A DNA stretch of 64,000 nt from an uncultured Mycoplasmatota bacterium (GTDB taxonomy: Bacteria > Bacillota_I > Bacilli_A > RF39 > UBA660), in the NCBI GenBank assembly GCA_947302655.1, contig CAMYVW010000003.1, positions 12,280 through 76,279 on the forward strand, written 5' to 3'. Below are positions 22,312-41,875 of the stretch, piece after piece; position 1 is the first letter of the stretch; each line of letters opens with the position of its first letter. The position numbers were made by a program, and so were the translations under genes. Under the pieces are notes generated by a model. It saw only the letters and a program-made list of their open reading frames with translations. It ran no database searches and was not told where the DNA came from.

Positions 22312-22734
22312 ATGTTAATTAATTATACACAAAATGATATAGACCTTCTTGCAAGAATAATGAGAGCAGAAGCTCTAAGCGAAGGAGATCTAGGAATGTT
22401 AATGGTTGGTAATGTCATTATAAATAGAGTATTAGCTAACTGTTTAACGTTTAAAAATATAACCAGTATATACCAAGCTATATACCAAAAAAATCAGTTT
22501 ACAGGTGTAAATTCATCATTATTTCAAGGTGCAGCAACTACAACAGAAAAACAACTTGCAAAAAGAATATTAGATGGAGAGTATTACTATCCTGCAACTC
22601 ATGCTTTATGGTTTTACTGCCCTAGTAAAGGATCTTCATGTAAAAATACATGGTATGATCAAAAATTATCAGGAAAATATAAAAATCATTGTTTTTATAA
22701 ACCAGATCCAGGAGTATGTAATCAATTATATTAA
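22312..22734 (+). CDS. SleB/CwlJ-family cell-wall hydrolase domain protein
   Basis: DLLARIMRAEALSEGDLGMLMVGNVIINRV matches the hydrolase_2 family. I moved the start to MLINY (RBS GGTGAT) because the longer ORF overlaps tRNA-Trp. Confidence 0.6.
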   Translation: MLINYTQNDIDLLARIMRAEALSEGDLGMLMVGNVIINRVLANCLTFKNITSIYQAIYQKNQFTGVNSSLFQGAATTTEKQLAKRILDGEYYYPATHALWFYCPSKGSSCKNTWYDQKLSGKYKNHCFYKPDPGVCNQLY

Positions 22735-22768
22735 AATAATCACTTCAAACATGAAGTGATTATTTTTA
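22735..22768. terminator. bidirectional terminator between convergent genes
   Basis: AATCACTTC-AAACAT-GAAGTGATT plus a T-run. Confidence 0.55.
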
Positions 22769-23986
22769 TAAATCAGATTTATTTACAGTTATAAGTGGAA
22801 TAACCTTACAAACAGCTGCTCCATCATCAATATCAATAGTTGATGTATTCTCATTATTTCTTATAACTTTAAAACCATTTTGATTAGATTCACTAGAATA
22901 AAGCCAGTAACAATTAGTATTAACAAGGTAACTATATTTATTATTCATAAAAGAAAAACTACCATTACTTGTTCTAACTTTATTTATAATATTATTGTAA
23001 TCAGCATTAGAATCCATATCTCCTATTATTTGTGGTGATATATTAGTGCCACTAAAAGTAGAATTAAATATATCATATGATAATACCTTAATAATAGTAT
23101 TAAGTGATAATTCACTTACTGTTGCATTCCAAGACGAAGTATAAGAACTTAAACTAGAACTATAGTTATTATATGTAGATGTAGGATAGTTATCATATAT
23201 ATTAGGTAATAAAGTAAGTGTTGCATTACCTTTTTTACTATCATAATCTAATACAGTTGTACTTAAACATGTTTGTGAAAGTGAATCACAACCTTTATTT
23301 TGAACTACATCATATAAAATAACATCACCAAGATTATATGTCATATCAGATGCTTCATTTGAATCAATATATTGTTCTGCAGCTAGTTCAATTACTATTT
23401 GAATAGAAGGTCTAATAGAATAACTATTATCACTGCTATGTCTTTGTTGTTCTTGATTTTGAAAAGTATATGAGTTTCTTCCCCAAGTTGAATCTAAAGC
23501 ATCATTTCCAGAATCAAGTGGCCATGAAATAGATACTTCAAATTGGGTTTCATCATTATTATTTTTAACATATCGTTTATTTAAATTTATATTTATATGA
23601 AACGGATAATCATGAGATAAAATATTCTCTAAACTTTTTTGATTCTGTCCTGTGGTAACAGCTGTTACGTTTGTATCAAATATTCTTGCAGATTGAATAT
23701 TATATGATAAAGCAGCATTTGAATCTCCTTTATTTTGTATCTTAACTAATTCAGTTACAGTCTCCATACCAGGATAAATATCATCAAGTGTAACAACTAT
23801 ATTATTAGTTACCACTTCATTATCCTTTTTCATTTCAATATACCATGACTGGATATCAACATCAGCAGATACTCTTTTTAATCCACTATATGCAAACCAT
23901 GCATATGTAGTAAATAGAAAAGTAGCTGCAACAAAAAAAAGTGGGATTATATAAATTTTAAGACGTTTCTTAAAAAGTTTTTTCAT
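22766..23986 (-). CDS. TasA/camelysin-like secreted protein with SipW-cognate signal peptide (distal gene of the array)
   Basis: N-terminal K-rich segment, TM, then TTYAWFAYSG (compare TasA GGTWAAFND). Next comes …LDDIYPGMETVTELVKIQNKGDSNAALSY (compare TasA NLKPGDKLTKDFQFENNGSLAI). Confidence 0.6.
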   Translation of the reverse strand: MKKLFKKRLKIYIIPLFFVAATFLFTTYAWFAYSGLKRVSADVDIQSWYIEMKKDNEVVTNNIVVTLDDIYPGMETVTELVKIQNKGDSNAALSYNIQSARIFDTNVTAVTTGQNQKSLENILSHDYPFHININLNKRYVKNNNDETQFEVSISWPLDSGNDALDSTWGRNSYTFQNQEQQRHSSDNSYSIRPSIQIVIELAAEQYIDSNEASDMTYNLGDVILYDVVQNKGCDSLSQTCLSTTVLDYDSKKGNATLTLLPNIYDNYPTSTYNNYSSSLSSYTSSWNATVSELSLNTIIKVLSYDIFNSTFSGTNISPQIIGDMDSNADYNNIINKVRTSNGSFSFMNNKYSYLVNTNCYWLYSSESNQNGFKVIRNNENTSTIDIDDGAAVCKVIPLITVNKSDL

Positions 23987-23998: not shown

Positions 23999-24562
23999 TT
24001 ATTTTTCTTCTTCTGTTCTTTTTTTCTCCTCTTTATTCATAAGTGTAGATATTATTTCTGTAGAAATAATGATTAATACAGGAATTATAATGAATAAATA
24101 AAATCCTACATTAGTACTAACTATTTTATATATAAAAGATATTATTAATGATTTATATATAACTTTACCATATAGTTGATCTTCAGATACAATTGGGTCT
24201 TCTACCATATTAGCAAGACCTTTTGCTCTAAAATATAACTTACCATCAACTTTCTCAATGCCAACAACTTGGTGAGTAATAACTTTATCTTTAAAACTGT
24301 TTCTCACTCCAAGATAACTAATAGTATCACCAACTTTAATGTCCTTTGGTTCAACTTCCTTAGCAATTAAAACATCACCAACTTTATATTTTGGTTCCAT
24401 TGATCCAGTAACAACAGTAAACATTCTAAAATTAAATATAGAAATTTTATTATTACTAAATCTTTGTAAACAAACACAGATAATAAAAGCAAACATAAAT
24501 ATAAAAAATATGGCTTTTAGAACTGTAAAACTAATCTTAAATACTTTATTGTCTTTTAACAT
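23999..24562 (-). CDS. sipW: SipW-type (archaeal/ER-type) signal peptidase I
   Basis: VVTGSMEPKYKVGDVLIAKEVEPKDIKVGDTISYL…VITHQVVG… matches B. subtilis SipW, with an N-terminal TM and a C-terminal TM anchor. Confidence 0.8.
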   Translation of the reverse strand: MLKDNKVFKISFTVLKAIFFIFMFAFIICVCLQRFSNNKISIFNFRMFTVVTGSMEPKYKVGDVLIAKEVEPKDIKVGDTISYLGVRNSFKDKVITHQVVGIEKVDGKLYFRAKGLANMVEDPIVSEDQLYGKVIYKSLIISFIYKIVSTNVGFYLFIIIPVLIIISTEIISTLMNKEEKKRTEEEK

Positions 24563-24573: not shown

Positions 24574-25710
24574 CTACAAGTACTCACTTGTTTTTGACAA
24601 ATAGTCTTCCATTTCTTTTTGAAATTTTTGTTTAATATCATTACTTCCAACTGCATTTGGATTTTTCTTTTTCTCCATTTCAGCACTTAAAAGCTTTAAT
24701 AGTTCAGATTCTTTAATTTTAATTCCATTTTTTAATAGTATATTTACGGCATTTTGAACCTGATTCATAACAATTAATAGAGCATAACTCTTAAGTTTTT
24801 CTTTTTCTACTTTTTTATCTCTTGTAATAGAATCTAAAGCATAATAATTCATTAAAAATGCCTCATCCATGATGCTTTTAATTAGTTTTCCACTTTTAAT
24901 TTTACCAGATTCTATATCATCTGCTTCACTGTTCATAACACTATATAAGTAGTCCCATAATTTTAAAGCCATTTGAAAGTTTGGATTCTTTAAAATTAAG
25001 TTAGTTTTTTTAATAGGCGGTGATACAAGTGGAGCATGAAGTTTTTTTAATGAAGTGATTAAAGTACTTGCAAGCCAAGGATTAATATAAGTCTTTTTTA
25101 TACTTGCAAGTTTCTTTTTAAGATTTTCAACTATTTTTTCAAAATCATTATCACCATTATTAACAATATTAGTTGGTACAGTTACTAAATTTAACTCTAC
25201 CATTACTTTATCTCTACCATTTGTAGTTTCAGCTCTATATTCTAAAGTTTTTTCATTCTTTGGAACAATATTTTTTAGAGCTTCTTCTTTCTCTTGAATA
25301 AACTTTAATAAATTTATAATTAAAGTATAAATAAATCTATTTTCATAAGTATTATATGTTTCTTCTCTAAATAAAACTAATAACTTAGATGGTAAAACAT
25401 CACCAGTTTTTTCATCTATTTTATCAATATAATCAGTATGTTTAGATAAATCTTTAATACTTTCAATACTAGTTTTTCTGGCTTTTTCAATTTTTGTAAC
25501 ATTAGTTTCACCAACTAGTACTACTTTGGGATTACGAACAATATTGTCAATATATGGGCAAACTTCTTCAATAATTTCAAGCCACTCTAATGAGTTAATA
25601 TCACTATTAAGTGAAGCATCAAACTTGATAGATGATTTGTTGTTTTTAAGAAAGTTTTGACTATTTTTCTTAAGCATCTCATCTACAGTTAAATTAATAA
25701 CCTTTCCCAT
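24574..25710 (-). CDS. McrC-like partner protein of the adjacent McrB-family GTPase; no obvious PD-(D/E)xK motif
   Basis: An 11-nt gap separates it from sipW and a 21-nt gap from the GTPase. The segment ETYNTYENRFIYTLIINLLKF resembles the McrC N-domain motif (…LPNRLIKSALLRLL…). The C-terminal half appears helical and has no recognisable nuclease signature. Confidence 0.35.
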   Translation of the reverse strand: MGKVINLTVDEMLKKNSQNFLKNNKSSIKFDASLNSDINSLEWLEIIEEVCPYIDNIVRNPKVVLVGETNVTKIEKARKTSIESIKDLSKHTDYIDKIDEKTGDVLPSKLLVLFREETYNTYENRFIYTLIINLLKFIQEKEEALKNIVPKNEKTLEYRAETTNGRDKVMVELNLVTVPTNIVNNGDNDFEKIVENLKKKLASIKKTYINPWLASTLITSLKKLHAPLVSPPIKKTNLILKNPNFQMALKLWDYLYSVMNSEADDIESGKIKSGKLIKSIMDEAFLMNYYALDSITRDKKVEKEKLKSYALLIVMNQVQNAVNILLKNGIKIKESELLKLLSAEMEKKKNPNAVGSNDIKQKFQKEMEDYLSKTSEYL

Positions 25711-25731
25711 ATTAATCCCTCTTTATTCTAA

Positions 25732-27273
25732 TTATGCAGACTTCTTAAGTCTTTCTAGGAACTCGATACATTCTTTCATATTTCCATTACCGAATTCTTT
25801 ATTTAAATATTTAATAAATCCATCAATTTCATCGCGTATTAATATTAAGTTTAATTGTTCAAATTTTCTTAATACTTTTTTAGCTAAGAAGTAATCGATA
25901 CCTGCAACTTCAGTACCTCCACAAGCTACATATACTGGAGCAAATACTTTTAACTGTTTCATAATACGATTACCGAAAGCAATTCTAAAATGTTCAATAA
26001 CATAATTATCAAGTTTATTAATAATATCTATACCTTTATCAGAAATAGCATACTTTTCAGTAGCTTCTTTAAATAGATCTTCTAAATAACTTGAGTTAAT
26101 ATCCATAGCTTCTTGTTCACGGCAAGTAAATGGATCAATTTTTTCGTTAATATCAATAGGCATTGCTCTATCGTAAACCTTATCTGTAACCATGAATGTT
26201 GAGTCATCGTTATTAATTGTACCAATATACCATAAGTTACCAGGAAGTCTCAATTTACCATGTTCTAGTAATTTAGGATCATCTGGCCATGTAGTTGTAA
26301 CAAGTTCAATAATCCATTCTTTACGGTTTGGAACTTCTAGAACTGATAACATTTCTGCAAAATAATATTCAACACGAGCAATATTCATTTCATCTAGAAT
26401 AATTGTATGGATATCATCATCAAATCTAGATAAGTATAATTCTTCAAGAACATTACTTTCATTAAACTTCTTTGTAAACTCATTGAAATATCCTAAAAGC
26501 TCTGTTTTATCACGCCAAGATGGTTGAACAGATGCAATACATGAGTTATGTTTAACGAATTTTCCCCATGCATATGCTAAGGAAGTTTTACCTGTTCCAG
26601 AAATACCTTGTAGGATTATAAGTTTACTACAGGCAAGTCCACCAAAGAAAGCTCTAAGTAAGCTTTCATTGTAATATAAATGTAATTGAGATGCTGCAAA
26701 ACATCTAAAGTTATCAATTAATTCTTCAAGATTAAAATTACCATTGTAATTTTTAGGTTTAAAGTTTTTCATAGCTTCATCAATACGAATTAATTTAGGG
26801 AATCTTGCAGTACCTGCATTTGGATCAGCATCTGGATTAGCGTTTTCTTCACCTGGAAGTCCAGATGAGTCTTCTCCTCCTTCTCCTGGTTTAAGTCCTA
26901 ACTGTGAAACCTTCATAGCCATAAGTTCATCTTTTTCTTTCATCAACTTACGAACTTTTTTATTAAGGTTATCTATTTCATCTAACAATTCATCTTGATT
27001 TAACTTTTGTTTTCTTAATCTAAAATATTTTCTTACTTTAGTAAATATTAAAAATAATACTCCAAGAATTATTACGACTAAGAAAAGAACTGTTATAACA
27101 ACAAAAATCCATTCAACAGCACCAAAACTACTTTTATAATTATCTAGTACTTTTTTGTAGTCAAAATAATTAAAGATTTCTTTAATACCATTAAACATAC
27201 CTTTAAATATCATACCTACGCCGTTAAAAAAAACAGAAGTAAATTCGTAAAAAAATCTAAAAAATGTATTCAT
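25732..27273 (-). CDS. membrane-anchored McrB-family (AAA_5) AAA+ GTPase
   Basis: Walker A LQGISGTGKTSLAYAWGKF. The McrB-type Walker B and downstream region IILDEMNIARVEYYFAEMLSVLE…WYIGTINNDDSTFMVTDKVYDRAMPIDI resembles McrB FIIDEINRANLSKVFGEVMMLME…GLMNTADRSL…DYALRRRF. The N-terminus has a TM helix EWIFVVITVLFLVVIILGVLFLIF, a coiled coil and a Gly/Pro/acidic linker. Confidence 0.7.
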   Translation of the reverse strand: MNTFFRFFYEFTSVFFNGVGMIFKGMFNGIKEIFNYFDYKKVLDNYKSSFGAVEWIFVVITVLFLVVIILGVLFLIFTKVRKYFRLRKQKLNQDELLDEIDNLNKKVRKLMKEKDELMAMKVSQLGLKPGEGGEDSSGLPGEENANPDADPNAGTARFPKLIRIDEAMKNFKPKNYNGNFNLEELIDNFRCFAASQLHLYYNESLLRAFFGGLACSKLIILQGISGTGKTSLAYAWGKFVKHNSCIASVQPSWRDKTELLGYFNEFTKKFNESNVLEELYLSRFDDDIHTIILDEMNIARVEYYFAEMLSVLEVPNRKEWIIELVTTTWPDDPKLLEHGKLRLPGNLWYIGTINNDDSTFMVTDKVYDRAMPIDINEKIDPFTCREQEAMDINSSYLEDLFKEATEKYAISDKGIDIINKLDNYVIEHFRIAFGNRIMKQLKVFAPVYVACGGTEVAGIDYFLAKKVLRKFEQLNLILIRDEIDGFIKYLNKEFGNGNMKECIEFLERLKKSA

Positions 27274-27275: not shown

Positions 27276-29282
27276 TTATTTATACTCTCCTATTCTTTTT
27301 AAAATATTATCAATAATTATTTTATCATAAATTTGTTTTGGTATGTTTTTTGATAACTTGCTTAAATCCATTTTTTTATCCGTAAAATAATAATCTGACA
27401 TAAAGATATAAGCTAGTTCTTCACTTGTGTATTCCTTATATTCGTCAAAAATCAAAGCAAATAAATATCCTTTTTTTCTTAATCTCATTATATCATCATT
27501 ATTTTGCAAAATATTAGAAACTGTAGAAGTAATTATAATATGATTTTTTGCATATTCATTATCAATAATAGATGCTATTCTATCTAGTTTCTTATCTTTT
27601 CCGTATAATGGATTAGGAATATAAACAAAATATTTAGCGTTGCTATTACCATTTAAAATATCTTTAACTACTCTACATAAAATTAGATTAAATAAAACAG
27701 ATAGTTTATCTTCTGATACAATTCCATCACTATAAGTTTTATCAACAATATATTTACTATAAACCTTGCTAAACTTAATATTATAGTTTAAATAAACACC
27801 GAAGTAATTAGGTTCATCTTTAAATCTATTATATATTGCTATAAAAGAATTTGTTTCAAATTTCTTAATAATTTCATTAATAATTTCACTTGAATATCTA
27901 ATAACAGCTTTAATATTATTTAGTAACAAGTCATTATCTACATCAAAATACTTATGTAATTCTTTCTCAAAATCAATATTTTTCTTATCTTCTATATCAT
28001 ATATAAATAATAATGCATTAGAGTAAAGTTCTATTGCTTTAGTCTTTGTATCATCATTTTGATTCTTCTTTATTAAAGCTTTCTTATTATCGTTAAAAAT
28101 CATCTTAAAAGATTTTCTTTCTTCAGGTAGTGAATAATATTTTAAATAAACATATTGTTTAATAAGTTCGCTTCTAAAAGAAGATTTTTTAATATAAGAA
28201 TATTCATCATCTAATAAAAGATCAATTATTTCGTTATACATTATATTTTTGATAATAAATAATTTATCAACGATATTTTTAGCCTTTTTAGCATTAATTT
28301 TTTCTCTTAAGTAATCCTTAGTAATTACTTTTTCTTCTTTCTCTTCTTCTATTTCTTCTGCTTCCAAAACTATATCATCTTGTTTAATTTTAACATCTAC
28401 TTTTTGATCATCTTCAACTGGTTTAATAGATGTATCACTATTTGGTTCTTCAATATCATCAACTTTAATGATCCTTAATACTGCAGTTTTAGATAAATCT
28501 TCTTCTTTTATCTTATTATCTTCATTAAATTCAACTACATTACCTGACTCACCATCAACAGTAACTTTTCTAAATAGAATAGTTTTACTCATTTCATCTT
28601 CAGGTTCATCATCTTCATCGTCATCAGATGCAAATACATCAGAATAATCAGGTTTAAATTTATTTTCTTCACTTGATGTAGTATTAGTAACATTAGTTAC
28701 TTTTATAGTATCATTTCGATGTTTAAAACTTCTAATCTTATTTTTAATTATTCCAATATACTTATTTAATATCTTATTAGAAGATTTCTTTCCAGCATTT
28801 AAATAAAGGTTAACAAAATACAATGTAATAATTAAGAAAATAATAACTATAGGATTAAAAATAGTTTTTTTAAGGAAACCAAAAGAGTGAAGAACTTTTT
28901 TTACTTTACCAACAATTTGGCTTCTATCAATTGGTTTATCTTTAGCATTATTAGCATCACCTTTAGTTACAAAAGAATCTTGGTAGGCTTCAACTACACG
29001 GTGTGTAATAAAATTATTATCCTGTTTATATGTAATAATATCACCTATTTTGATATTATTATCACTTTTAACTAAAATCCAATCTCCAATTTCAACTGAT
29101 CCATGCATACTGCCAGTTTGAATTTCAAATAGTGAATAACCAAATAAACTAGAATGATCATTTTTTAAGATTTTAACTTGAATAAAAGAATAAATAGAAG
29201 CAAGCAAAAAAAGGGCAAATAATACTATTAAAGCATTTAAAGCATAATCAGTAATTTTACTAAAAACTTTTACTTTCTTCAT
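27276..29282 (-). CDS. SipW-type signal peptidase fused to a ~450-aa C-terminal (predicted cytoplasmic) domain of unknown function
   Basis: N-terminal TM, then QTGSMHGSVEIGDWILVKSDNNIKIGDIITYKQDNNFITHRVVE…TKGDANNAKDKPIDRSQIVGKVKKV, which carries the SipW catalytic Ser/His boxes. A second TM follows, then an acidic linker DDDEDDEPEDE, then a 450-aa domain. The protein is 668 aa. Confidence 0.65.
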   Translation of the reverse strand: MKKVKVFSKITDYALNALIVLFALFLLASIYSFIQVKILKNDHSSLFGYSLFEIQTGSMHGSVEIGDWILVKSDNNIKIGDIITYKQDNNFITHRVVEAYQDSFVTKGDANNAKDKPIDRSQIVGKVKKVLHSFGFLKKTIFNPIVIIFLIITLYFVNLYLNAGKKSSNKILNKYIGIIKNKIRSFKHRNDTIKVTNVTNTTSSEENKFKPDYSDVFASDDDEDDEPEDEMSKTILFRKVTVDGESGNVVEFNEDNKIKEEDLSKTAVLRIIKVDDIEEPNSDTSIKPVEDDQKVDVKIKQDDIVLEAEEIEEEKEEKVITKDYLREKINAKKAKNIVDKLFIIKNIMYNEIIDLLLDDEYSYIKKSSFRSELIKQYVYLKYYSLPEERKSFKMIFNDNKKALIKKNQNDDTKTKAIELYSNALLFIYDIEDKKNIDFEKELHKYFDVDNDLLLNNIKAVIRYSSEIINEIIKKFETNSFIAIYNRFKDEPNYFGVYLNYNIKFSKVYSKYIVDKTYSDGIVSEDKLSVLFNLILCRVVKDILNGNSNAKYFVYIPNPLYGKDKKLDRIASIIDNEYAKNHIIITSTVSNILQNNDDIMRLRKKGYLFALIFDEYKEYTSEELAYIFMSDYYFTDKKMDLSKLSKNIPKQIYDKIIIDNILKRIGEYK

Positions 29283-29351: not shown

Positions 29352-29894
29352 TTACGAGTTTTCTATTTCATCATCATTTTTTCCATATTTTATCTCAATT
29401 ATTAATGTGTATAATTGATAAATAAATAGGAAGAAGTTAGGAACTAATATTATAAACAAAAAGCCCCATTTAGATTCAATAACTGAAAGATATGTACCAA
29501 TATTAGAATAAGACTTAGTTCCAGTTCCCATTATAAACTCTTTTGAATATGTTTCGCCATTTTCAAATGATATTGAATCTTGATCTTCAAATACTTGACC
29601 TACTTTACCATATTGAACAGATGCTCCACCTTGACCATCTAAATGATAAGTAAATACCATATCTCCAGCTTTATAATCCTTAATTAGTTTATTTTCAACA
29701 AAAACCAAAGATCCTTTTTTATAATTTTCAGATGAAAATTCTTTTTTTACTATTAATAACGAAGTATCACCAAATTGTGTTATTCCATACTTATTATGAT
29801 TTAAAACAAGCACTGTCATTGTTATTGTAAATGCAAGAAAAATAACAATTAATGTTGTTGTAAATATCTTTTTAACTAACTTAAATCCTTTCAA
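29352..29894 (-). CDS. SipW-like paralogue with degenerate catalytic motifs (possible pseudo-peptidase)
   Basis: Same N-TM, beta-domain, C-TM architecture and KKGSLVFVENKLIKDYKAGDMVFTYHLDG box as SipW. It has ITQFGDTSLLIV where GSMEP should be, and no THR box. Confidence 0.4.
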   Translation of the reverse strand: MKGFKLVKKIFTTTLIVIFLAFTITMTVLVLNHNKYGITQFGDTSLLIVKKEFSSENYKKGSLVFVENKLIKDYKAGDMVFTYHLDGQGGASVQYGKVGQVFEDQDSISFENGETYSKEFIMGTGTKSYSNIGTYLSVIESKWGFLFIILVPNFFLFIYQLYTLIIEIKYGKNDDEIENS

Positions 29895-29951: not shown

Positions 29952-30839
29952 CTAATTACACCCACTAGACTCTCGTATTACAAAATCATTTAAAGATAAA
30001 TCACTATTATTACTTCGTTTGAAAAATTTAATTTTAGAACTAGAATCTGCATTAACAATAGTTTTAAATCCATTAACATAATCATTAGCATCATACTGAA
30101 GATTAGTAGTTAAATTATTAATATCTAATACTCTATTAGTACTATCAAAAGTAATTTGTAAGCACTTATTTTGTGAATAAGTATTATTCAATATTAATTC
30201 ACTAAAATTTGAATAAACCTTATTTATATTAGTTATTTCTCCACTACTTTTAATATTTCTTTGTAACTTAAAAACACCAGATAAACTCTTTGAATAAGGA
30301 CTTGTACTAGTTGCAGTTATTCTAACATCAATTTCTTTATCTTGATCATTTTGATTATTAAAAACAATATTAAAATAGTTGTTTTGCGATACTTTTTGTT
30401 TTACCCAATTATATCCATCGACTTCACATTCAGTCTTATTATAAGATGTAACATCAGTTTCATCTTTCTCATTTACACATCTAGCATTACTTGATAAAAC
30501 AAGATTTAAAGTACTATTATTACTATCGTTAATTGTACAACTAGCATTAATATTCTCAGTTAAAACTTCACACGTTACAGTATATCTAATATCAAAATCA
30601 GTTATTAAGTTTTCACTAGCATAATTTTTCAAAGTAAATGTTGTACTACCACCATCCCACAGAAGATTGGTATTATTTTTATTGGTTTTTAATTCGTTAC
30701 TTTCGAAATAAAATCCCTTAGATTTTAAGTAGTATCCTTTCATATAACTAGAAGTATATCTACCAAAAGAAATGATTGCTAAAGAAAATGATATAGATAT
30801 AAGTATAAACATAATTAATACTTTTTTCTTTTTATTCAT
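29952..30839 (-). CDS. secreted Cys-containing Asn/Ser-rich protein with SipW-cognate-like signal (minor fibre/accessory component)
   Basis: MNKKKKVLIMFILISISFSLAIISFGRYTSSY…; 295 aa with six Cys. Confidence 0.45.
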   Translation of the reverse strand: MNKKKKVLIMFILISISFSLAIISFGRYTSSYMKGYYLKSKGFYFESNELKTNKNNTNLLWDGGSTTFTLKNYASENLITDFDIRYTVTCEVLTENINASCTINDSNNSTLNLVLSSNARCVNEKDETDVTSYNKTECEVDGYNWVKQKVSQNNYFNIVFNNQNDQDKEIDVRITATSTSPYSKSLSGVFKLQRNIKSSGEITNINKVYSNFSELILNNTYSQNKCLQITFDSTNRVLDINNLTTNLQYDANDYVNGFKTIVNADSSSKIKFFKRSNNSDLSLNDFVIRESSGCN

Positions 30840-30847: not shown

Positions 30848-31375
30848 CTATATTTTTTGATAACTTTTGATTTCAACATTAATATAATCAATTAAGTTTT
30901 TATACTCTTCAGTGTTATAGTTTCCATCAAAAGTAATTCGAAGTTCAAATGTATTTAATTCATTTCTTGTATGAGATAGTTCAAACGAATTAGTTTTACA
31001 AACTAGTTCATTATTTTCATTTCTACTATAAGTCTCATCACAAGTTAGAACTAAAGTATTATCCTTGTATAAATTTATTACAAGTGGAGCATAATGTGGT
31101 GTTATAATTGACAATTCATATAAAATTGATACATCACTTCTTGTATTATTCTTCACGTTAGTAATAGAAAAATTATGACTCATACTCTCTCCAGGAGATA
31201 GCTCACCTACAGGTATTTCTAATCTGTCAGTTACCTCAGAGTTAAAGACAAAACCAGCAAGTTTTTGATCAACACTTGATGCAACTACACCTGAATTAAA
31301 ATAAGAGTATGTAATTCCAAGACTAAACGTTAAAATTAAGAGTGAAATAATAATTATTAATACTTTTATTCTCAT
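30848..31375 (-). CDS. compact TasA/CalY-like protein with SipW-cognate signal
   Basis: SLGITYSYFNSGVVASSVDQKLAGFVF… then …LSPGESMSHNFSITNVKNNTRSDVSILYELSI, which is the TasA-fold core. 175 aa. Confidence 0.5.
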   Translation of the reverse strand: MRIKVLIIIISLLILTFSLGITYSYFNSGVVASSVDQKLAGFVFNSEVTDRLEIPVGELSPGESMSHNFSITNVKNNTRSDVSILYELSIITPHYAPLVINLYKDNTLVLTCDETYSRNENNELVCKTNSFELSHTRNELNTFELRITFDGNYNTEEYKNLIDYINVEIKSYQKI

Positions 31376-31384: not shown

Positions 31385-34300
31385 CTACCTAATTATAAAG
31401 TACTTATTAATAGTATTAATGTACTCATCACCATTATATAAATCAAATGCTAATCTATAATATCCTTTTAACATATTAGTTGTATTAATAAATAAATCTA
31501 AATTATTAACAGTTGCAGGATTATTAGCATTATATAATGTAGCCCTTCTTGCAAGATAATAGACATTATTTACATATTGATCAAGTTGTGTTGAAGTATA
31601 ATCTTGAATATCAACAAGTGTATACTGCTGATTATATGCAGATAAAGTATTCTTTTTATAAAGTGAATATTTAATATTAGGATTATTTAATCCACTAACT
31701 ATTACACTATAATCAAGCTCTGCAGTAGATGGCTTATTATATATCATATCTTTATTATTAGTAACATCAAATACATATGTATAATTCTTTTCTTCTGTAG
31801 AATTAATTAAAGGAATTAAAACTCTACTATTACTATTTTGTGAAATAATAGTTTCACCATCATACGAAATATATGGAGTTATAGTAATGCTATAATTTCC
31901 ATCTAATAGATTATTTAAAGATCTATATGTAGAAATCTTAAGAATAAAGCTAGAAGTAGTATTAGTATTAAGATTTATTTTTATATTACCATTATTATCA
32001 GGAACATAAATATTATCAGAAACGCTAAATATAATACTCTTATAATAGTCTCTATTTATTACATTACCATTACTATCAACAATATTAATTAAAACTCCAA
32101 TAGTTTTATCATTAAAGAAGGTATCAGTAGCTTGTGAATTTAAAACATTGTTATAAAGTGTAACATTAGTTACAGAATCTGTATTATAGTTAATATTTTG
32201 ATTAAAGTTTGTTGTTAAAGAGTAACTAGTATTATAACTATCAGATGTTAAAACACTAAATGTGGTTTCATTGATATATGGTCTTACAATATTCATATTG
32301 TTATCAAGACCAACAATATTTAAGTAAATATTATGCATATCAGAACTTATAGTTGAAGAACTAAAATCAATGATTAAAGAAAATTCTTCGCTCTGAACAG
32401 ATCCACTCTGATATAAATTATTATTTCTTTTTCCAACAAGATTAAATAAACCAAAACTATAATAATATTTATTATTTAAGCTAATTGCATCATTTTGATT
32501 AACAGTATATGAATATGTATTATTATTAGTTTTATCAAATAACATAATACGTGTGCCGGTTGGCAGTAATGCATTAGAAATTAAATAGTGATCGAAACTT
32601 TGTTGATTTGTTGATGCATATGTTATATTCATCATTATTGATGATTTTTTTGTAATGATATTTCCTGATTCAAAACCAACAGGTTTTAAATCAGAAACAG
32701 CATATCCATCATAAATAATAAGTGGTGTTGATGCATAAGACACATTTCCAGCCAAATCAGTTGATCTAACATATAAAATATACTTTCCAGAAGAAGTTAT
32801 ATCAATTGGATTTACATAATCAGTCCACTGAACTGAACTTAAATCATTAATATCATTGTTTAAAAAATAATTTAAAGAAATACTATCTTGTGAATTATCA
32901 GTGCTAGATGCACTAATAGTTGCACCAGTATTAATGTAAACTTCATTATTATTAATTGAAGAATAAATGTTATTATTAAAATCTATACTAATTAAAGGAC
33001 CAGTTTTATCAATAATAATATTATCAGAATTAATATATGTAACTTTACCAGATAAATCAACAAACTTAACATAAATTATATAAGAGCCTTCATTTTGAAC
33101 TACTACAGGATCTGTATATGAAGTCCATGAAACATTATTTAAATCACTTGTTGATAACACTTGATCTTGATTACTTATATAATAATACTTTGTAGTTTGA
33201 AGAAGCTGACTATCATCTGCGATTGTAAAAGTTATATTAGAAGATATATACTTCTTATCAATAAATAGTGAGTATGTATCATAAGTATCAAGGTTTAAAT
33301 ATAATTTTGTATGATTATCACTGTTATCATCAAAATATAAAAGAGGATAATCACTTCCATTAAATACCCATTTATTTTGACTATTTGAACTATAATTATT
33401 TAAAGATACAAACTCATTGTAACTAGTTAGATATGTTTTATCTTTTAAATTATTATCAATTACCATATTTGATAAAACTAAATTATTATTTCTTGCATAA
33501 GTATAATAAATATTTTGTGAATTTATATTACTATTATAAAGATGTGAAATTATATCATTATCAGTTGTTAAAAAACTGTTTTCAAAAACTAAATTTGAAT
33601 TTATTAAATATCCAATAAAGCCATTACTTATAGTTCCAGCATTATAAGAATTACTAATTGAACTATTGCCCTTTAAAACTCCTATTAAATTTGAATCATT
33701 TGAATAACCATTTCCATAACTATAAGAACTATCGATATTAGTATCAATCGCATAACCTATTAATAAACCAGTTATATCTCCACCATAAACGCTTGCTCTA
33801 TTAATAATATTTGAAATTGATGAACCTTCAGAATATGCAGCAACAGCACCATTTATTGATAATGATATTTGGTCATAGTCTGCATAAAGTGTTGTTTCAT
33901 CATAAAGACTAGCGCTAGATTCATCAATTAAAAGTCCACTTATATAAATACTATCAAGTGTTCCATTTGTTAAATTTGTAGTTAAAATAGCTTTATTCTT
34001 AACAACAATATTATTTAAATATAAGGATGATACATCACCACTTATATTTTCAAATAATGGAGAGTTGCTATAATAACCATATATAGTCTTAAAATTACCA
34101 TCTAAATAACCTTCAAAATTCGACATTGAAGGGAACATATTAAGAGTTCCTACTTCTTCTTGAGTAAAATCAGAAGAGCTATAATACTTATTATCATTAA
34201 CAAAATATGCATTACCATTTAAATTATATTTTAACGTATCATTTTCATAATAAAAATAACCGTCATTAATTACAATATCATTTATAATTTTAAAATATTT

Positions 34301-34555
34301 ACCATCATATGTATCATTTTCCAAGTTACTTGCAAAATAAGCAAATTCTTCAGGTGAAGAAATAATATACGGATTATTTCTTGTTCCACTACCAGATCTA
34401 TATGATGAAGCAACATTACCTGACCATACTCTAGCATCTGATAATGATGTTCCCTTTTTAAATCTGCCAAATGCCGGTAATATACAAAAAGGAAGTGATA
34501 TTAAAGCAACCATAAAAATAGCATAAATTATTTTTCTATTTTTACTTATACTCAT
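31385..34555 (-). CDS. 1056-aa secreted Asn/Ser/Tyr-rich protein (putative fibre tip/adhesin) with SipW-cognate-like signal
   Basis: Signal …LISLPFCILPAFGRFKKGTS. The GTRNNPYIISSPEEFAYF segment is typical of beta-helix surface proteins. Composition is extremely N/S/Y/T-rich throughout. Confidence 0.5.
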   Translation of the reverse strand: MSISKNRKIIYAIFMVALISLPFCILPAFGRFKKGTSLSDARVWSGNVASSYRSGSGTRNNPYIISSPEEFAYFASNLENDTYDGKYFKIINDIVINDGYFYYENDTLKYNLNGNAYFVNDNKYYSSSDFTQEEVGTLNMFPSMSNFEGYLDGNFKTIYGYYSNSPLFENISGDVSSLYLNNIVVKNKAILTTNLTNGTLDSIYISGLLIDESSASLYDETTLYADYDQISLSINGAVAAYSEGSSISNIINRASVYGGDITGLLIGYAIDTNIDSSYSYGNGYSNDSNLIGVLKGNSSISNSYNAGTISNGFIGYLINSNLVFENSFLTTDNDIISHLYNSNINSQNIYYTYARNNNLVLSNMVIDNNLKDKTYLTSYNEFVSLNNYSSNSQNKWVFNGSDYPLLYFDDNSDNHTKLYLNLDTYDTYSLFIDKKYISSNITFTIADDSQLLQTTKYYYISNQDQVLSTSDLNNVSWTSYTDPVVVQNEGSYIIYVKFVDLSGKVTYINSDNIIIDKTGPLISIDFNNNIYSSINNNEVYINTGATISASSTDNSQDSISLNYFLNNDINDLSSVQWTDYVNPIDITSSGKYILYVRSTDLAGNVSYASTPLIIYDGYAVSDLKPVGFESGNIITKKSSIMMNITYASTNQQSFDHYLISNALLPTGTRIMLFDKTNNNTYSYTVNQNDAISLNNKYYYSFGLFNLVGKRNNNLYQSGSVQSEEFSLIIDFSSSTISSDMHNIYLNIVGLDNNMNIVRPYINETTFSVLTSDSYNTSYSLTTNFNQNINYNTDSVTNVTLYNNVLNSQATDTFFNDKTIGVLINIVDSNGNVINRDYYKSIIFSVSDNIYVPDNNGNIKINLNTNTTSSFILKISTYRSLNNLLDGNYSITITPYISYDGETIISQNSNSRVLIPLINSTEEKNYTYVFDVTNNKDMIYNKPSTAELDYSVIVSGLNNPNIKYSLYKKNTLSAYNQQYTLVDIQDYTSTQLDQYVNNVYYLARRATLYNANNPATVNNLDLFINTTNMLKGYYRLAFDLYNGDEYINTINKYFIIR

Positions 34556-34571: not shown

Positions 34572-35642
34572 CTAAAATTCATAACCTGCTAAATCTTTTT
34601 CAAGATCTAAACTTAAATTTAGTGGAGCTCCCTCAGAATGAACTTCTAAAGCATCTATATCTTGTCCTTCTATCCAAAGGTAAACTCTAACTTTAGTAAT
34701 TCCATTTGGTATTTGAAACAATGGTTCAGAAAATTCATCGTCTTTTCTTGTTTCCTGAAGAGCAAAGTGTTCTGTATCAAAAGAACCGCTAGAAGAAATA
34801 AGCCCACTTTTATGATCAAGTCTTCTTCCTTCTTTAATAACTGCATACGTAGGAACATATGTGTTATCAACAAGATCAATACCAAATTCTTTTACAGCAT
34901 CAATAGATTCTTGATTGTGCTTCAAACTATTTGGTTCATAAATAAGCGAAACGCATTCATTATTACACTGTAAATTTTGAATAGTATATACATCAGCTTT
35001 TAAATCCGTTTCTCCAATTTTTACAAATCCGAGTCTAATAGAGTTCATAATATCTTCCATTTTTTCCCTAGTTTCTTGATCTGCAGTTTCATCAAACTCA
35101 ATATAAGTTCCACTACTTAAATAAAGATTATCTTTATATGGAGATCCAGATACATTCTTTAAAAATATATCAAAAGCTATATAGTTACTATACTCACTTG
35201 GACTATCTTCTGAAATCAAATCAGTATTAACAAATCTTTTACCTCTTCTTGCTTTATCAGTATATTTTCCCATTGATCCTGAATAAACATCAAATTTATC
35301 ATTGTTTGGAGAAGAAATACCATTTGATGAAACTGACCAAAGACCATTAGTAGCCCATTGATTAGTATGATTAGGATAATTTTTCTTAACTTCATGTATA
35401 ACAGACTCTCTAGATATTTCAATAGAATCAGAAAAATTAACACCATCTAAAGAAATAAATAAACCTGTATCTGTTGATACTTTAACATTAAAGAATTTAA
35501 TTTTAACATTTAAGGATGCTGAAAACCATGCATAAGTTGCAAAAAGAAAAACTACACCAACAAAAAATGTAACAAGAAAGATATATTTAGTTTTCTTAGA
35601 AAACTTTGGAATATGAAGTTTTTCTTTTATGTTAGTTTTCAT
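34572..35642 (-). CDS. TasA-like fibre subunit paralogue (SipW-cognate signal)
   Basis: …FLFATYAWFSASLNVKIKFFNVKVSTDTGLFISLDG…, and a C-terminal motif KVRVYLWIEGQDIDALEV shared with the two major-subunit genes. The RBS GGAGGA precedes the ATG at 35642. Confidence 0.55.
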   Translation of the reverse strand: MKTNIKEKLHIPKFSKKTKYIFLVTFFVGVVFLFATYAWFSASLNVKIKFFNVKVSTDTGLFISLDGVNFSDSIEISRESVIHEVKKNYPNHTNQWATNGLWSVSSNGISSPNNDKFDVYSGSMGKYTDKARRGKRFVNTDLISEDSPSEYSNYIAFDIFLKNVSGSPYKDNLYLSSGTYIEFDETADQETREKMEDIMNSIRLGFVKIGETDLKADVYTIQNLQCNNECVSLIYEPNSLKHNQESIDAVKEFGIDLVDNTYVPTYAVIKEGRRLDHKSGLISSSGSFDTEHFALQETRKDDEFSEPLFQIPNGITKVRVYLWIEGQDIDALEVHSEGAPLNLSLDLEKDLAGYEF

Positions 35643-35654
35643 AATATCCTCCAT

Positions 35655-35734
35655 TAATAAATTAAGGAATAATCAGTAACCGACTATTCCTTAACTTTTA
35701 TTTGTAACAAAACATAAGCTTTGTTTATTAATTA
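35655..35734 (-). promoter_or_regulatory. inter-cistronic hairpin (partial terminator/attenuator) downstream of the major-subunit genes
   Basis: GGAATAATCAGTAACCGACTATTCC imperfect hairpin in an 80-nt gap. Confidence 0.3.
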
Positions 35735-37420
35735 TTATTCATTAGTAACAGTTACAGTTACAACTTCAGTAGCTACGTTTCCAGCTTCATCTGCTACTTC
35801 ATATAATACTCTGTATACACCAGGTACTGCATTATTTACAGTTCCTGTTATAGTAGCATGAATTCCAGATCCTTCTGGTCCATACCATTCATCTGCATCA
35901 TCTGCAGTGTCATGAGTATATGGAGTTAAGTTATCAGTAATAGCTGTAATTGTAGGTTGAGTGAATGTACCGTTCTTAGCTATAGTTTGATTTTGAGATC
36001 CGCTTAATGTAATAACAGGAGCAGTCTTATCTATAGTTTTTAACTTAGTAATAATTTGAGCTTCTGTTGGACTTACACCTTCACCAAGTTCTAATTCTGT
36101 AGCTAAAGCTTCAATTATTTCAGCTCTTGTTTGGTTAGGTCCTTCACCTTGATTTAGTACTGGTCCTTGATAGTTAATATCATCTTCAGTAAATCTTTCT
36201 TTAGTGAATCCGAAGTTAACAGCTATTTGTTTACCTATAGAAGCAAAGTCATAGTTATCAATGTCTTGTCCTTCAATATAGATATACACTCTAACTTTTG
36301 TAATACTATTTGGTGCTAAAGTAATGAATGTAGGTCTTTCAACACCAGTTTTTAATTTCATTGTATCAGTAAAGTATGGATATGCAAATAAGTATTTACC
36401 AGCATTTCCTTCAGCAGCACTAATAGCAATAGCCTCAGTATCAGCTATATCTCCAGTATAGCTATTAAATGCACTACCATCATAGATATCAACTGAATTC
36501 ATAGCAGTGATTTCTTTACCAATCGCATATGTTGGATATGTTTGACCATCAACTACTGTTCCACACGCACCTTCATAAGAAGCAGCTAAGCTTGTATCAG
36601 TTCCAGCAGCTTTTCTTGCTCTACAAGTAGTATTATACCAAGTTAGAGCATCTGGTACGTGGTTTGTATCATTTGGTTCCCAAATTTGAGCTGTACGGCA
36701 AATACCAGTTACAGTCGAATCAGTTGCACAAGTAATACCTTGAATTGTTGATGCATCTGTATTAGTTGCCTCTACACGACCAATTTGTGCAAATGCAACA
36801 CGAACAGAATTTTCAATACCAGTGTTTGCAACGCCTGTTGATCCAACTACAACCTTAGAATCATTTGTTAAATAAATTGCTTCTTCGTTAAGTGGATTAT
36901 TTGTCTGGTAATATTCAGCACCAGATGAGTTTTTAATAAATAAGTCGAATGCAACATAACCATCAGGTGTTGTAGAATCGTTATTAACTCTACTAGCCAT
37001 TAATCTATAACCACCTGCAGTAGTTGTTAAACTACCTTTTTCAAATAATGTTAAACGACTTGTTGTTGTATTAATAATACCAATTGATGACATAGGAATT
37101 AATCCACGTCCACCCCAAGTATTTGTATTAGTTGGGTATGGATTTCCTTGTGCAGTTAATGTATTATCTGCAGCAGTCTCTGCAGCAGGGTTTCTAAAGT
37201 TTGTACTGTTAATTGCTACTGTATCGCTCCAGTTTACACCATCAAGTGATAACTGTAAGTCTTCTGTTGCAGCAATACGAACTTCGAATGGAGAAACATT
37301 AACAGTTCTCATACCAATAAACCATGCATAAGTTGCTGTTCCTAGGACGATTGCCATAAAAGTAAATACTATAGCAAGTCGCAATATTCTTTTTTTCTTA
37401 CTAGAATTCTTCCTTTTCAT
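35735..37420 (-). CDS. TasA-like major fibre subunit with C-terminal Ig-like (DUF5011-type) domain
   Basis: …LGTATYAWFIGMRTVNVSPFEVRIAATEDLQLSLDG…VRVYIYIEGQDIDNYDFASIGKQIAVNFGFTKERFTE… followed by …NAVPGVYRVLYEVADEAGNVATEVVTVTVTNE. Its Thr/Ala/Gly-rich composition and GC-richer codon use resemble the ribosomal-protein genes in this window. Confidence 0.6.
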   Translation of the reverse strand: MKRKNSSKKKRILRLAIVFTFMAIVLGTATYAWFIGMRTVNVSPFEVRIAATEDLQLSLDGVNWSDTVAINSTNFRNPAAETAADNTLTAQGNPYPTNTNTWGGRGLIPMSSIGIINTTTSRLTLFEKGSLTTTAGGYRLMASRVNNDSTTPDGYVAFDLFIKNSSGAEYYQTNNPLNEEAIYLTNDSKVVVGSTGVANTGIENSVRVAFAQIGRVEATNTDASTIQGITCATDSTVTGICRTAQIWEPNDTNHVPDALTWYNTTCRARKAAGTDTSLAASYEGACGTVVDGQTYPTYAIGKEITAMNSVDIYDGSAFNSYTGDIADTEAIAISAAEGNAGKYLFAYPYFTDTMKLKTGVERPTFITLAPNSITKVRVYIYIEGQDIDNYDFASIGKQIAVNFGFTKERFTEDDINYQGPVLNQGEGPNQTRAEIIEALATELELGEGVSPTEAQIITKLKTIDKTAPVITLSGSQNQTIAKNGTFTQPTITAITDNLTPYTHDTADDADEWYGPEGSGIHATITGTVNNAVPGVYRVLYEVADEAGNVATEVVTVTVTNE

Positions 37421-37448
37421 ATATATTTCCTTTCCTTCTCAGTCTATA

Positions 37449-41686: not shown

Positions 41687-41875
41687 GCCTACCATCACCA
41701 TACACTATTCTAGTTAATTATAGAAAAATTAAAATTGAATGTCAATTATATCTAATCAATTTTAAATTAACATATATATTTACAGTAATTTACAAAATTA
41801 TGTACAGTTTGCTTTGCAAATAAATTGTATAGAACTGTAAAATATACTATAATATTTACAAAAGGAGGATTATGT

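What the first reader, a model, noticed from the sequence alone, without database searches (positions are those of the whole stretch)
24574..27273. Membrane-anchored McrB-family AAA+ GTPase with a nuclease-less McrC-like partner embedded inside the fibre operon
The 513-aa protein has the diagnostic McrB/AAA_5 motifs: a GTGKT P-loop, and IILDEMNIARVEYYFAEMLSVLE…NDDSTFMVTDKVYDRAMP aligning to McrB DEINRAN…NTADRS…ALRRRF. In place of a DNA-binding N-domain it has an amphipathic N-terminus, a TM helix, a coiled coil and an acidic Gly/Pro linker. The downstream 378-aa protein shares the McrC N-domain NR-(L/F)-I-x-x-L-I motif, but shows no PD-(D/E)xK catalytic triad in its helical C-terminal half. 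Both sit between sipW and the SipW-fusion gene with 2-21 nt intergenic gaps, so they are co-transcribed with secretion and processing genes. A McrBC-like GTPase module attached to a protein-fibre secretion system is not a described arrangement. It could act as a membrane motor or remodelling component for fibre export, or it could be a defence module repurposed or hitch-hiking in the operon.
Basis: partly seen in the sequence, partly recalled or inferred. Interest (0 to 1): 0.8.

Follow-up and report, generated by a model that had tools for sequence, protein, structure and literature searches.

The report
Membrane McrBC-like motor in fibre operon
A pair of proteins descended from a DNA-cutting defence enzyme has lost its DNA-binding and cutting parts, is anchored in the membrane, and is a fixed part of a surface-fibre gene cluster in uncultured gut Bacilli; the arrangement was named (CoCoPALM) in 2024 but has never been studied.

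Summary
ORF 25732-27273(-) is a McrB-family AAA+ NTPase of the NxD clade. It has a conserved N-terminal tail, one TM helix, a coiled coil and an acidic linker in place of a DNA-binding domain. ORF 24574-25710(-) is a DUF2357 (McrC N-domain) protein with no detectable PD-(D/E)xK nuclease.

In 82 related loci the order is always SipW-fusion > ATPase > DUF2357 > SipW > 406-aa secreted protein. The ATPase is the most conserved gene of the cluster. No relative was found on viral contigs, and no nuclease was detected in the operon proteins scanned. A hitch-hiking restriction module is therefore effectively excluded.

The claim that the arrangement is undescribed is wrong. Bell et al. [quoted passage not shown]

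Most likely function: a cytoplasmic NTP-driven switch or motor coupled to SipW-dependent fibre assembly. This is inferred, not shown.

The parts
25732..27273 (-). McrB-like AAA+ NTPase, NxD clade, 513 aa. Layout: conserved N-terminal tail (res 1-54, nt 27112-27273); TM helix (res 55-78, nt 27040-27111); basic stretch plus coiled coil (res 79-127, nt 26893-27039); acidic Gly/Pro linker (res 128-155, nt 26809-26892); AAA+ core and lid (res 156-513, nt 25735-26808).
24574..25710 (-). McrC-like partner, 378 aa. The DUF2357 module contains invariant YENRF (R125), a predicted beta-hairpin (res 154-177) and a PPIKKTNLILKNPNF motif (res 231-245). The C-terminal ~120 residues are predicted helical. No nuclease domain was detected.
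27276..29282 (-). SipW/Sec11-type signal peptidase (res ~18-156; S58, H94, D109, D115 invariant), a second TM, an acidic low-complexity region, then a cytoplasmic helical bundle and a degenerate EAL-like domain (C-terminal 341 aa, nt 27279-28301).
23999..24562 (-). Stand-alone SipW-type signal peptidase I, 187 aa.
   Evidence: TIGR02228 83 bits, cut-off 51.85
22766..23986 (-). 406-aa secreted protein, last gene of the five-gene core. It has an N-terminal hydrophobic anchor with invariant T-x-A-W-F and four invariant cysteines. No family match.
29352..29894 (-). 180-aa membrane protein weakly similar to SipW, with the catalytic Ser motif not conserved. Possible pseudo-peptidase.
29952..30839 (-). 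295-aa secreted protein of the fibre block. No family match.
30848..31375 (-). 175-aa putative TasA/camelysin-like fibre subunit with an N-terminal GITYSYF motif.
   Evidence: Peptidase_M73 E=0.002, below cut-off; 7 of 25 orthologues, best 8.6e-5; TasA 5of1 E=1.8, not significant
31385..34555 (-). 1056-aa large surface protein with an OmpL47-type/Ig-like beta domain. Candidate adhesin or tip component.
34572..39056 (-). Three further secreted proteins (360, 561 and 535 aa) sharing the TYAWF signal motif. The two larger ones are paralogues with a C-terminal Bact_surface_Ig-like domain.
41825..42499 (+). Small secreted protein (~205 aa) of TasA-like size with an SSTYSRYVAG signal motif. It is encoded on the opposite strand, is present in 57 of 82 related loci, and lies next to the 406-aa gene in L001 and L002.

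Best explanation
The pair is a CoCoPALM-type module, derived from McrBC and lacking both the DNA-binding domain and the nuclease.

The 513-aa protein is predicted to form the usual McrB-type hexameric ring in the cytoplasm, tethered to the membrane by six TM helices and coiled-coil stalks. The 378-aa DUF2357 protein is predicted to insert its helical-bundle and hairpin 'finger' into the ring and stimulate NTP hydrolysis, as McrC does for McrB. Its invariant R125 in YENRF is the candidate for the basic residue that McrC inserts.

In place of a nuclease, the output is proposed to be the SipW machinery encoded on either side. The gene immediately upstream, 2 nt away, is a SipW peptidase whose cytoplasmic tail is a helical bundle plus a catalytically dead EAL-like domain. 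That tail is a likely docking or regulatory partner.

The NTPase cycle would then gate or power the processing, release and polymerisation of secreted fibre subunits. At least some of these resemble TasA/camelysin, and they stay membrane-anchored by their SipW-type signal peptides until cleaved. The role would be comparable to that of the hexameric ATPase in type IV pilus assembly.

Shown: homology, architecture, lack of a detectable nuclease, invariant linkage to SipW, vertical conservation.
Inferred: hexamer formation, activation by the partner, contact with the EAL-like domain, and the role in fibre assembly.
For: McrB homology and intact catalytic motifs.

NxD-[D/E] signature, exactly as Bell et al. 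describe for the clade that contains CoCoPALM.

TM plus coiled coil, with a weak FtsL-type match at residues 56-110 (E=6e-5).

Partner is DUF2357 without a nuclease, while a plasmid relative has DUF2357 plus PDDEXK_7.

Synteny: SipW-fusion > ATPase > DUF2357 > SipW > 406-aa gene in all untruncated loci among 82. This five-gene core stands alone in L022 (gene content checked), and eight further loci with about 7-8 kb of upstream DNA have no BLAST match to the fibre genes..

The ATPase is the most conserved gene of the cluster: median 65% identity, against 30-59% for the other cluster genes.

At least 165 species-level genomes carry it. None was found in 2.9 M viral contigs.

A SipW-type peptidase lies immediately upstream of the ATPase in 61 of 79 loci of the 4-TM subtype, and in locus L162 of a distant 1-TM subtype. 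Both are flanked by small secreted proteins with similar signal motifs..

The rotary, McrC-in-pore mechanism of McrBC is taken from PMC7680126.
Against: - No experiment exists for any NxD-clade McrB homologue (PMC11090510). Nucleotide preference is open, because non-canonical McrB homologues do not discriminate between nucleotides (bioRxiv 10.64898/2026.08.31.748284).
- B. subtilis TasA fibres need only TapA, SipW and TasA (review PMC4551309), so a motor is not an obvious requirement.
- TasA-likeness of the 175-aa subunit is below family thresholds.
- No physical link between the ATPase, the partner and the EAL-like domain has been tested.
Confidence: 0.6

Rival explanations
1. A conventional or CoCoNuT-like Type IV restriction or defence module that happens to sit in, or was recently inserted into, the fibre operon and still acts on nucleic acids.
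For: The nearest non-membrane relatives are large soluble ATPase plus DUF2357 pairs on plasmids in defence-island-like contexts. The ATPase matches the PADLOC candidate model PDC-M26A at E=1e-37.
Against: - No DNA-binding N-domain, and no PD-(D/E)xK, HEPN or other nuclease domain detected in the partner or in the nine operon proteins scanned.
- Bell et al. state that nuclease-less CoCoNuT McrC homologues are always next to another nuclease; none was detected here.
- Fixed gene order and orientation in 82 loci, with the highest conservation in the cluster.
- Absent from viral contigs.
- Membrane tether.
- The PADLOC match covers only the ATPase core (residues 183-321 against profile positions 300-438 of 724).
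Confidence: 0.05
2. A regulatory nucleotide sensor rather than a motor. The ring, the partner and the EAL-like domain read the cell's GTP or cyclic-dinucleotide state and switch SipW activity, and so fibre production, on or off. This would be inside-out signalling analogous to LapD controlling the LapG protease.
For: A degenerate EAL-like domain is fused to a peptidase whose catalytic domain is extracytoplasmic. LapD and FimX, both c-di-GMP receptors that control adhesin or pilus output, are among the top structural matches. McrB-type enzymes have low basal activity and depend on a partner. B. subtilis SipW is reported to be bifunctional, with a regulatory role (Terra et al. 2012, cited in PMC4551309).
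Against: - All canonical EAL catalytic and binding motifs appear to be replaced (my manual mapping). The profile shows no sequence similarity to the EAL protein PdeL.
- No GGDEF, EAL or DDFG motif occurs in about 457,000 aa of ORFs from the 82 lineage loci. This is a weak test, because whole genomes were not examined.
- The full set of catalytic AAA+ residues is strictly conserved. That fits repeated hydrolysis at least as well as sensing.
Confidence: 0.2
3. A membrane protein extraction or quality-control AAA+ machine. It would remove cleaved SipW-type signal peptides or stalled precursors from the membrane, or hold the cytoplasmic N-termini of precursors in place for cleavage.
For: The cluster encodes at least seven proteins with long hydrophobic SipW-type signal anchors. 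The ATPase is a membrane-tethered AAA+ ring. Its N-terminal 11 residues are nearly invariant, which suggests a specific intramembrane or juxtamembrane contact.
Against: In solved McrBC complexes the central pore is filled by the McrC finger and does not thread substrates (PMC7680126). The DUF2357 partner is retained in every locus. No pore-loop analysis was possible.
Confidence: 0.1

Closest known systems
[quoted passage not shown]
   Same: NxD-clade McrB-like NTPase fused to an FtsB-like TM plus coiled-coil domain; DUF2357 partner; association with signal-peptidase-family genes interpreted as pilus assembly factors.
   Different: The published description gives no gene-by-gene anatomy. Not mentioned there, in the text available to me: the SipW peptidase with a degenerate EAL-like tail, the five-gene core, the fully nuclease-less 378-aa partner, and the restriction of this family to a lineage of uncultured Bacilli. 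Extensive coiled coil in the partner could not be confirmed.
E. coli / Thermococcus gammatolerans McrBC Type IV restriction enzyme
   Same: AAA+ core with Walker A/B, an Nx(x)D signature in place of sensor 1, a trans-acting Arg, and an adjacent downstream partner gene with a finger-type N-domain.
   Different: No DNA-reader domain and no PD-(D/E)xK nuclease. NxD rather than NxxD. One Arg where McrB has RRR. Membrane-anchored. Chromosomal, vertically conserved and embedded in a secretion operon.
CoCoNuT systems (CnuB/CnuC) and PADLOC candidate PDC-M26
   Same: Same NxD clade, with 36-39% identity over the ATPase domain to plasmid-borne members. The McrC homologue often lacks an active nuclease.
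   Different: CoCoNuTs are soluble, carry very long coiled coils, and are always paired with HEPN or other nucleases. This module is membrane-bound and no nuclease was detected in the operon.
tapA-sipW-tasA (Bacillus subtilis) and sipW-bsaABC (Clostridium perfringens) matrix-fibre operons
   Same: A dedicated SipW-type signal peptidase encoded with several small secreted subunits that carry a characteristic signal motif. The 406-aa core protein has conserved cysteines, as TapA does.
   Different: Those operons encode no cytoplasmic NTPase. BsaC secretion borrows type IV pilus proteins (PMC11580942). Here two SipW copies, a pseudo-SipW-like protein and a dedicated McrBC-like NTPase are built into the operon.
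LapD / FimX / YdiV-type degenerate EAL domains
   Same: The cytoplasmic domain of the SipW-fusion has the EAL fold without the catalytic motifs. LapD controls an extracytoplasmic protease, and FimX controls a pilus ATPase.
   Different: No sequence similarity and no GGDEF partner domain. The barrel appears truncated, ligand binding is unknown, and the domain is fused directly to the peptidase.

Membership tests
McrB-family AAA+ NTPase | AAA+ core with Walker A and Walker B | tested here: met
   GISGTGKTS and ILDEMN are invariant in 80 orthologues and in the 140 nearest cluster representatives.
McrB-family AAA+ NTPase | Nx(x)D signature replacing sensor 1 | tested here: met
   GTIN354-N-D356-D357-ST aligns to E. 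coli MNTADRS. N and D(+2) are invariant, and +3 is D, E or Q in 104, 33 and 3 sequences. This is the NxD variant.
McrB-family AAA+ NTPase | Closer to McrB than to other AAA+ clades such as MoxR | tested here: met
   Only McrB chains are matched in the PDB. hhalign gives 96.4% against E. coli McrB. NCBIfam McrB E=8e-5, well below that model's cut-off.
McrB-family AAA+ NTPase | GTP-specific hydrolysis by a hexamer, stimulated by McrC | not testable with these tools
   Biochemistry is needed. Non-canonical homologues are not GTP-specific.
McrC / DUF2357 | DUF2357 N-terminal (finger/helical bundle) domain | tested here: met
   Pfam PF09823, 49.5 bits against a cut-off of 23.3. The YENRF and TN-ILKN motifs are shared with DUF2357 proteins of plasmid systems.
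McrC / DUF2357 | Beta stalk and inserted basic residue that activates McrB | tested here: inconclusive
   A hairpin at residues 154-177 is predicted only at low confidence. R125 is invariant but could not be mapped onto TgMcrC R263 / EcMcrC K157.
McrC / DUF2357 | C-terminal PD-(D/E)xK endonuclease | tested here: not met
   No PDDEXK hit, whereas a relative scores PDDEXK_7 at E=2e-7. No acidic/Lys triad is conserved. The C-terminal region is predicted all-helical, at low confidence.
Type IV restriction system (McrBC sensu stricto) | DNA or modified-base reader domain on McrB | tested here: not met
   The N-terminus is a TM helix, a coiled coil and an acidic linker.
Type IV restriction system (McrBC sensu stricto) | Patchy, mobile, defence-island distribution | tested here: not met
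   Fixed synteny in 82 loci, at least 165 species-level genomes, and none on viral contigs.
CoCoPALM | McrB-like GTPase of the NxD clade | tested here: met
CoCoPALM | Fusion to an FtsB-like TM plus coiled-coil domain | tested here: met
   The architecture is present. The only family-level support is a sub-threshold FtsL_Actino match, E=6e-5, residues 56-110.
CoCoPALM | Association with signal-peptidase-family genes | tested here: met
   SipW-type genes flank the pair in all untruncated loci, and also in the 4-TM and distant 1-TM subtypes.
CoCoPALM | Coiled coil also in the McrC homologue ('usually') | tested here: inconclusive
   Helices of 25-29 residues are predicted in a low-confidence model. 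No coiled-coil predictor was available.
CoCoNuT | Tandem or adjacent HEPN or other nuclease, and long coiled coils | tested here: not met
   No nuclease domain in the nine operon proteins scanned. The SipW-fusion tail is EAL-like, not a nuclease.
TasA/SipW fibre system | Dedicated SipW (Sec11/archaeal-type) signal peptidase | tested here: met
   TIGR02228 scores 83 and 73 bits against a cut-off of 51.85. Sec11 structures match at E=4e-6. Ser, His and Asp are conserved.
TasA/SipW fibre system | TasA/camelysin (Peptidase_M73) fold subunits | tested here: inconclusive
   Sub-threshold Peptidase_M73 hits in the window protein and in 7 of 25 orthologues. TasA 5of1 E=1.8. No structure was predicted.
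EAL domain (C-terminus of the SipW-fusion) | EAL (beta/alpha) barrel fold | tested here: met
   [not shown]
EAL domain (C-terminus of the SipW-fusion) | Catalytic EAL / N / ExxE / DDFG / KxD motifs | tested here: not met
   No Pfam EAL hit. hhalign against PdeL found nothing. The motifs are absent by inspection of alignment A3; the residue mapping is my own inference.

The most novel reading that the evidence does not exclude
The McrBC-derived ring and its DUF2357 'rotor' would be the engine of a previously unrecognised, NTP-driven pilus assembly machine of Gram-positive bacteria. Stepwise hydrolysis around the membrane-tethered hexamer would be transmitted, through the EAL-like tail of a SipW peptidase, to time signal-peptide cleavage and donor-strand polymerisation of TasA-like subunits. 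This would be an energised fibre-assembly principle distinct from type IV, chaperone-usher, sortase and curli systems. It would also be a clear case of a restriction enzyme motor exapted for cell-surface biogenesis.
Probability: 0.25. Interest if true: 0.85.

Novelty: new member of a known kind. Interest (0 to 1): 0.55.

Why it matters
McrBC motors are known only as nucleic-acid-directed defence enzymes. If this reading is right, the same AAA+/DUF2357 pair has been stripped of its DNA-handling parts, anchored in the membrane and built into a surface-fibre operon. The operon is conserved in at least 165 species-level genomes of uncultured Bacilli, many of them from gut, rumen and digester samples. 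Related forms are common in human-gut metagenomes.

If it powers or gates SipW-dependent fibre assembly, that would change the view that TasA-type fibres assemble without cellular energy. It would also give a tractable example of defence-to-housekeeping exaptation. The degenerate EAL-like domain on the peptidase suggests an inside-out control route for adhesion structures in abundant gut bacteria about which almost nothing is known.

Tried and rejected
1. MoxR or another AAA+ clade for the ATPase. Rejected: only McrB is matched in the PDB, and hhalign gives 96%.
2. A hidden PD-(D/E)xK nuclease in the partner. D282 and D298-K-K looked suggestive, but D298 is not conserved and the region is predicted helical.
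5. The third homologue search, on the SipW-fusion tail, returned only 5 proteins.
6. The afdb50 fold library was unavailable.
7. hhalign of the SipW-fusion profile against the E. coli PdeL EAL protein found nothing.
8. PDB profile searches for the 406-aa protein and the TasA-like subunit gave nothing significant.
9. Supplementary files of Bell et al. held as text do not mention CoCoPALM.
10. A SipW + McrB literature search gave only an E. coli genotype mention.
11. The promoter scan was no better than chance (159 found against 153 expected). No intrinsic terminator lies on the minus strand between 22.8 and 41.7 kb.
12. A motif search for GGDEF, EAL and DDFG in the lineage loci found none.
Full report
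OBSERVATION. The two ORFs are present as described: 25732-27273(-), 513 aa, and 24574-25710(-), 378 aa. They sit in a run of same-strand genes with gaps of 2, 21, 11 and 12 nt between the SipW-fusion (27276-29282), the ATPase, the partner, a stand-alone SipW (23999-24562) and a 406-aa gene (22766-23986). The window is AT-rich, about 26% G+C.

THE ATPase. Pfam gives only sub-threshold AAA/AAA_5 hits. E. coli McrB is the only family of solved structures matched, by the single sequence (E=1e-3) and by a family profile (E=5e-5). hhalign of the family alignment against E. coli McrB gives 96.4% probability and E=1.2e-9 over residues 196-401.

Across the 140 nearest 50%-identity cluster representatives, four elements are conserved. 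These are Walker A (G-x-S-G-T-G-K-[ST]-S), Walker B (LDEMN), the signature GT[AI]-N-x-D-[D/E]-S-T, and a single Arg (DKVYDR369A). N and D(+2) are invariant, and the next residue is D, E or Q. Bell et al. describe the NxD clade of McrB-like GTPases in exactly these terms: 'usually followed by a glutamate or a second aspartate' (PMC11090510).

The PADLOC candidate model PDC-M26A matches the ATPase core at E=1e-37. This reflects the soluble defence-type relatives in the same clade.

Residues 1-155 replace the DNA-reader domain:
- a tail whose first 11 residues (MNTFxRFFYEF) are nearly invariant;
- a TM helix at about residues 55-78;
- a basic stretch;
- a conserved coiled-coil-like segment, residues 79-127;
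- a variable acidic Gly/Pro linker.
NCBIfam gives a sub-threshold FtsL-type match to residues 56-110 (E=6e-5).

THE PARTNER. Pfam DUF2357, the McrC N-terminal domain family, scores 49.5 bits against a cut-off of 23.3 over residues 24-157. An alignment with DUF2357 proteins of plasmid systems and of other subtypes shows two shared motifs, YENRF(I)xxL(I) and PPIxKTNxILKN. Homology therefore runs to about residue 260.

No PDDEXK family is hit, whereas the Lactiplantibacillus plantarum plasmid relative scores PDDEXK_7 at E=2e-7 in the same type of scan. In 75 orthologues no acidic-acidic-Lys arrangement is conserved in the C-terminal half.

CONTEXT AND DISTRIBUTION. The ATPase has thousands of homologues. 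The top 120 are full-length at 66-95% identity, and the few named by their source are MAGs labelled Bacilli or Mollicutes. A scan of one genome per species found at least 165 carriers, and the best 80 are 60-84% identical.

I called ORFs in 82 loci and matched them to the window's nine operon proteins. The order SipW-fusion > ATPase > DUF2357 > SipW > 406-aa gene is invariant. Forty loci show the full nine-gene order, and the deviations are mostly contig ends. Nine loci with about 7-8 kb of upstream DNA have no match to the fibre genes, and in the one examined (L022) the upstream genes are unrelated metabolic genes. This defines a five-gene core.

Median identity to the window is 65% for the ATPase. 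The other genes score as follows:
- SipW, 59%;
- the 180-aa protein, 50%;
- the partner, the 406-aa protein and the TasA-like subunit, 41-42%;
- the SipW-fusion, 34%;
- the 1056-aa protein, 30%.

No relative is present in 2.9 M viral contigs. The phage collection gave only two weak hits.

WIDER CLADE. An exhaustive search of 50%-identity representatives gives 738 clusters at E<=1e-30. The nearest fall into four groups: 1-TM forms with the same N-terminal tail; 2-TM forms; forms with four or five TM helices; and soluble Lys-rich or coiled-coil forms of 700-870 aa.

The soluble forms correspond to plasmid systems with an ~800-aa ATPase and a 611-705-aa DUF2357 protein in defence-like neighbourhoods.

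A metagenome scan seeded with the 4-TM forms gave 80 loci. In 61 of 79 of them, the gene immediately upstream of the ATPase is a ~335-aa SipW-type peptidase (NCBIfam SipW E=4e-13). It is preceded by two or three ~230-aa secreted proteins with a GFAAW signal motif. The ATPase is followed by the partner, an ABC ATPase, an ABC-2-like permease and an 810-aa secreted protein.

A distant 1-TM locus (L162, 41% identity) reads SipW > ATPase > DUF2357 > two ~200-aa secreted proteins > SipW. The link between SipW and a membrane-anchored NxD ATPase is therefore general.

THE SipW-FUSION. Its N-terminus is a Sec11/SipW-type peptidase with invariant Ser, His and Asp residues. I suspected that its conserved C-terminal motif (D514...E524-D-K526) might hide the missing nuclease.

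No EAL family hit or sequence similarity is detectable. By my manual mapping every catalytic motif is replaced and the barrel is shortened. The domain is therefore a degenerate EAL-like module of the receptor or protein-interaction type. No nuclease domain was detected in any of the nine operon proteins scanned.

SUBSTRATES. At least seven cluster proteins carry an N-terminal hydrophobic anchor followed by a (T/S)Y(A/S)(W/Y)F-type motif. An 18-nt repeat encoding TYAWF recurs in four genes. The 175-aa protein gives sub-threshold camelysin/TasA (Peptidase_M73) hits. The larger proteins carry Ig-like or OmpL47-type domains.

WHAT IS KNOWN. Bell et al. [quoted passage not shown] They name these CoCoPALM and defer them to a future paper. 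I found no follow-up.

This locus meets the NxD, TM plus coiled-coil and signal-peptidase criteria. The coiled coil in the partner is unconfirmed. It is therefore a member of a named but uncharacterised class.

MECHANISM. Solved McrBC complexes show a McrB hexamer with the McrC finger in the pore. A basic residue of McrC remodels the NxxD loop, and hydrolysis is proposed to proceed sequentially and rotary-fashion around the ring (PMC7680126).

By inference, the ring here is tethered under the membrane and the DUF2357 protein acts as its activator. The output would go not to a nuclease but to the neighbouring SipW machinery, most plausibly through the EAL-like cytoplasmic tail of the SipW-fusion. 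The NTPase cycle would gate or drive cleavage and polymerisation of fibre subunits.

Rivals are a pure nucleotide-sensing switch, a membrane extraction or quality-control role, and a residual defence function. The last is the least likely. Nucleotide preference is open.

VERDICT. This is a new member of a known kind (CoCoPALM). The useful additions are the EAL-like peptidase fusion, the five-gene core, strict vertical conservation, and the generality of the SipW link across subtypes.

Noticed in passing
[not shown]
   Followed up: yes
L004, L005, L008, L013, L016, L017, L023, L031, L042, L046, L053, L054, L057, L066, L078, L079 (locus starts): In 16 of 82 related MAG loci the contig ends 0-250 bp upstream of the SipW-fusion gene. 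Assemblies break at the border between the variable fibre-subunit block and the conserved core, which hints at strain-level variability or rearrangement there.
   Followed up: no
window 29283-29351: The intergenic region before the SipW-fusion gene has an AT-rich hairpin (GTTTTTTTT-CTTGG-AAAAAAAC) followed by a TGgTAGAAT extended -10-like element. This may be an internal promoter for the five-gene core.
   Followed up: no
window 23894-23911, 35523-35540, 37319-37336, 38955-38972: An 18-nt repeat (AAACCATGCATAAGTTGC and variants) encodes a shared TYAWF signal motif in four secreted proteins. The 561-aa and 535-aa genes are paralogues, 72-81% identical over repeats of 63-239 nt.
   Followed up: partly
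window 29352-29894 (-): A 180-aa membrane protein is only weakly SipW-like (NCBIfam E=0.016) and lacks a conserved catalytic Ser motif, but has a strongly conserved C-terminal TM. It may be a pseudo-peptidase.
   Followed up: partly
window 41825-42499 (+): A small secreted gene of TasA-like size lies at the far end of the cluster here. In L001 and L002 it lies directly after the 406-aa gene on the opposite strand, and a homologue is present in 57 of 82 loci. This is a local rearrangement.
   Followed up: partly
window 22166-22236 (-) and 22381-22734 (+): A tRNA gene overlaps the 5' part of a mechanically listed 190-aa ORF. The real product is a shorter SleB-type cell-wall hydrolase (Hydrolase_2, E=7e-19).
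   Followed up: partly
L119:10236-13607; the corresponding partner genes in L130 and L132: In metagenome loci an 800-870-aa McrB-like ATPase is paired with a 1047-1190-aa partner. In L119 the partner combines DUF2357 with a GNAT acetyltransferase domain; the partners in L130 and L132 fall in the same cluster but were not scanned.
   Followed up: no
L092:10986-13327 (representative of about 46-49 loci): The 4-TM subtype operon carries an ABC transporter ATPase and an ABC-2-like permease directly after the DUF2357 partner.
   Followed up: partly
window 8554-8685 (-): Ribosomal protein L10 leader (Rfam RF00557, 74 bits), showing that the window is ordinary chromosomal sequence.
   Followed up: no
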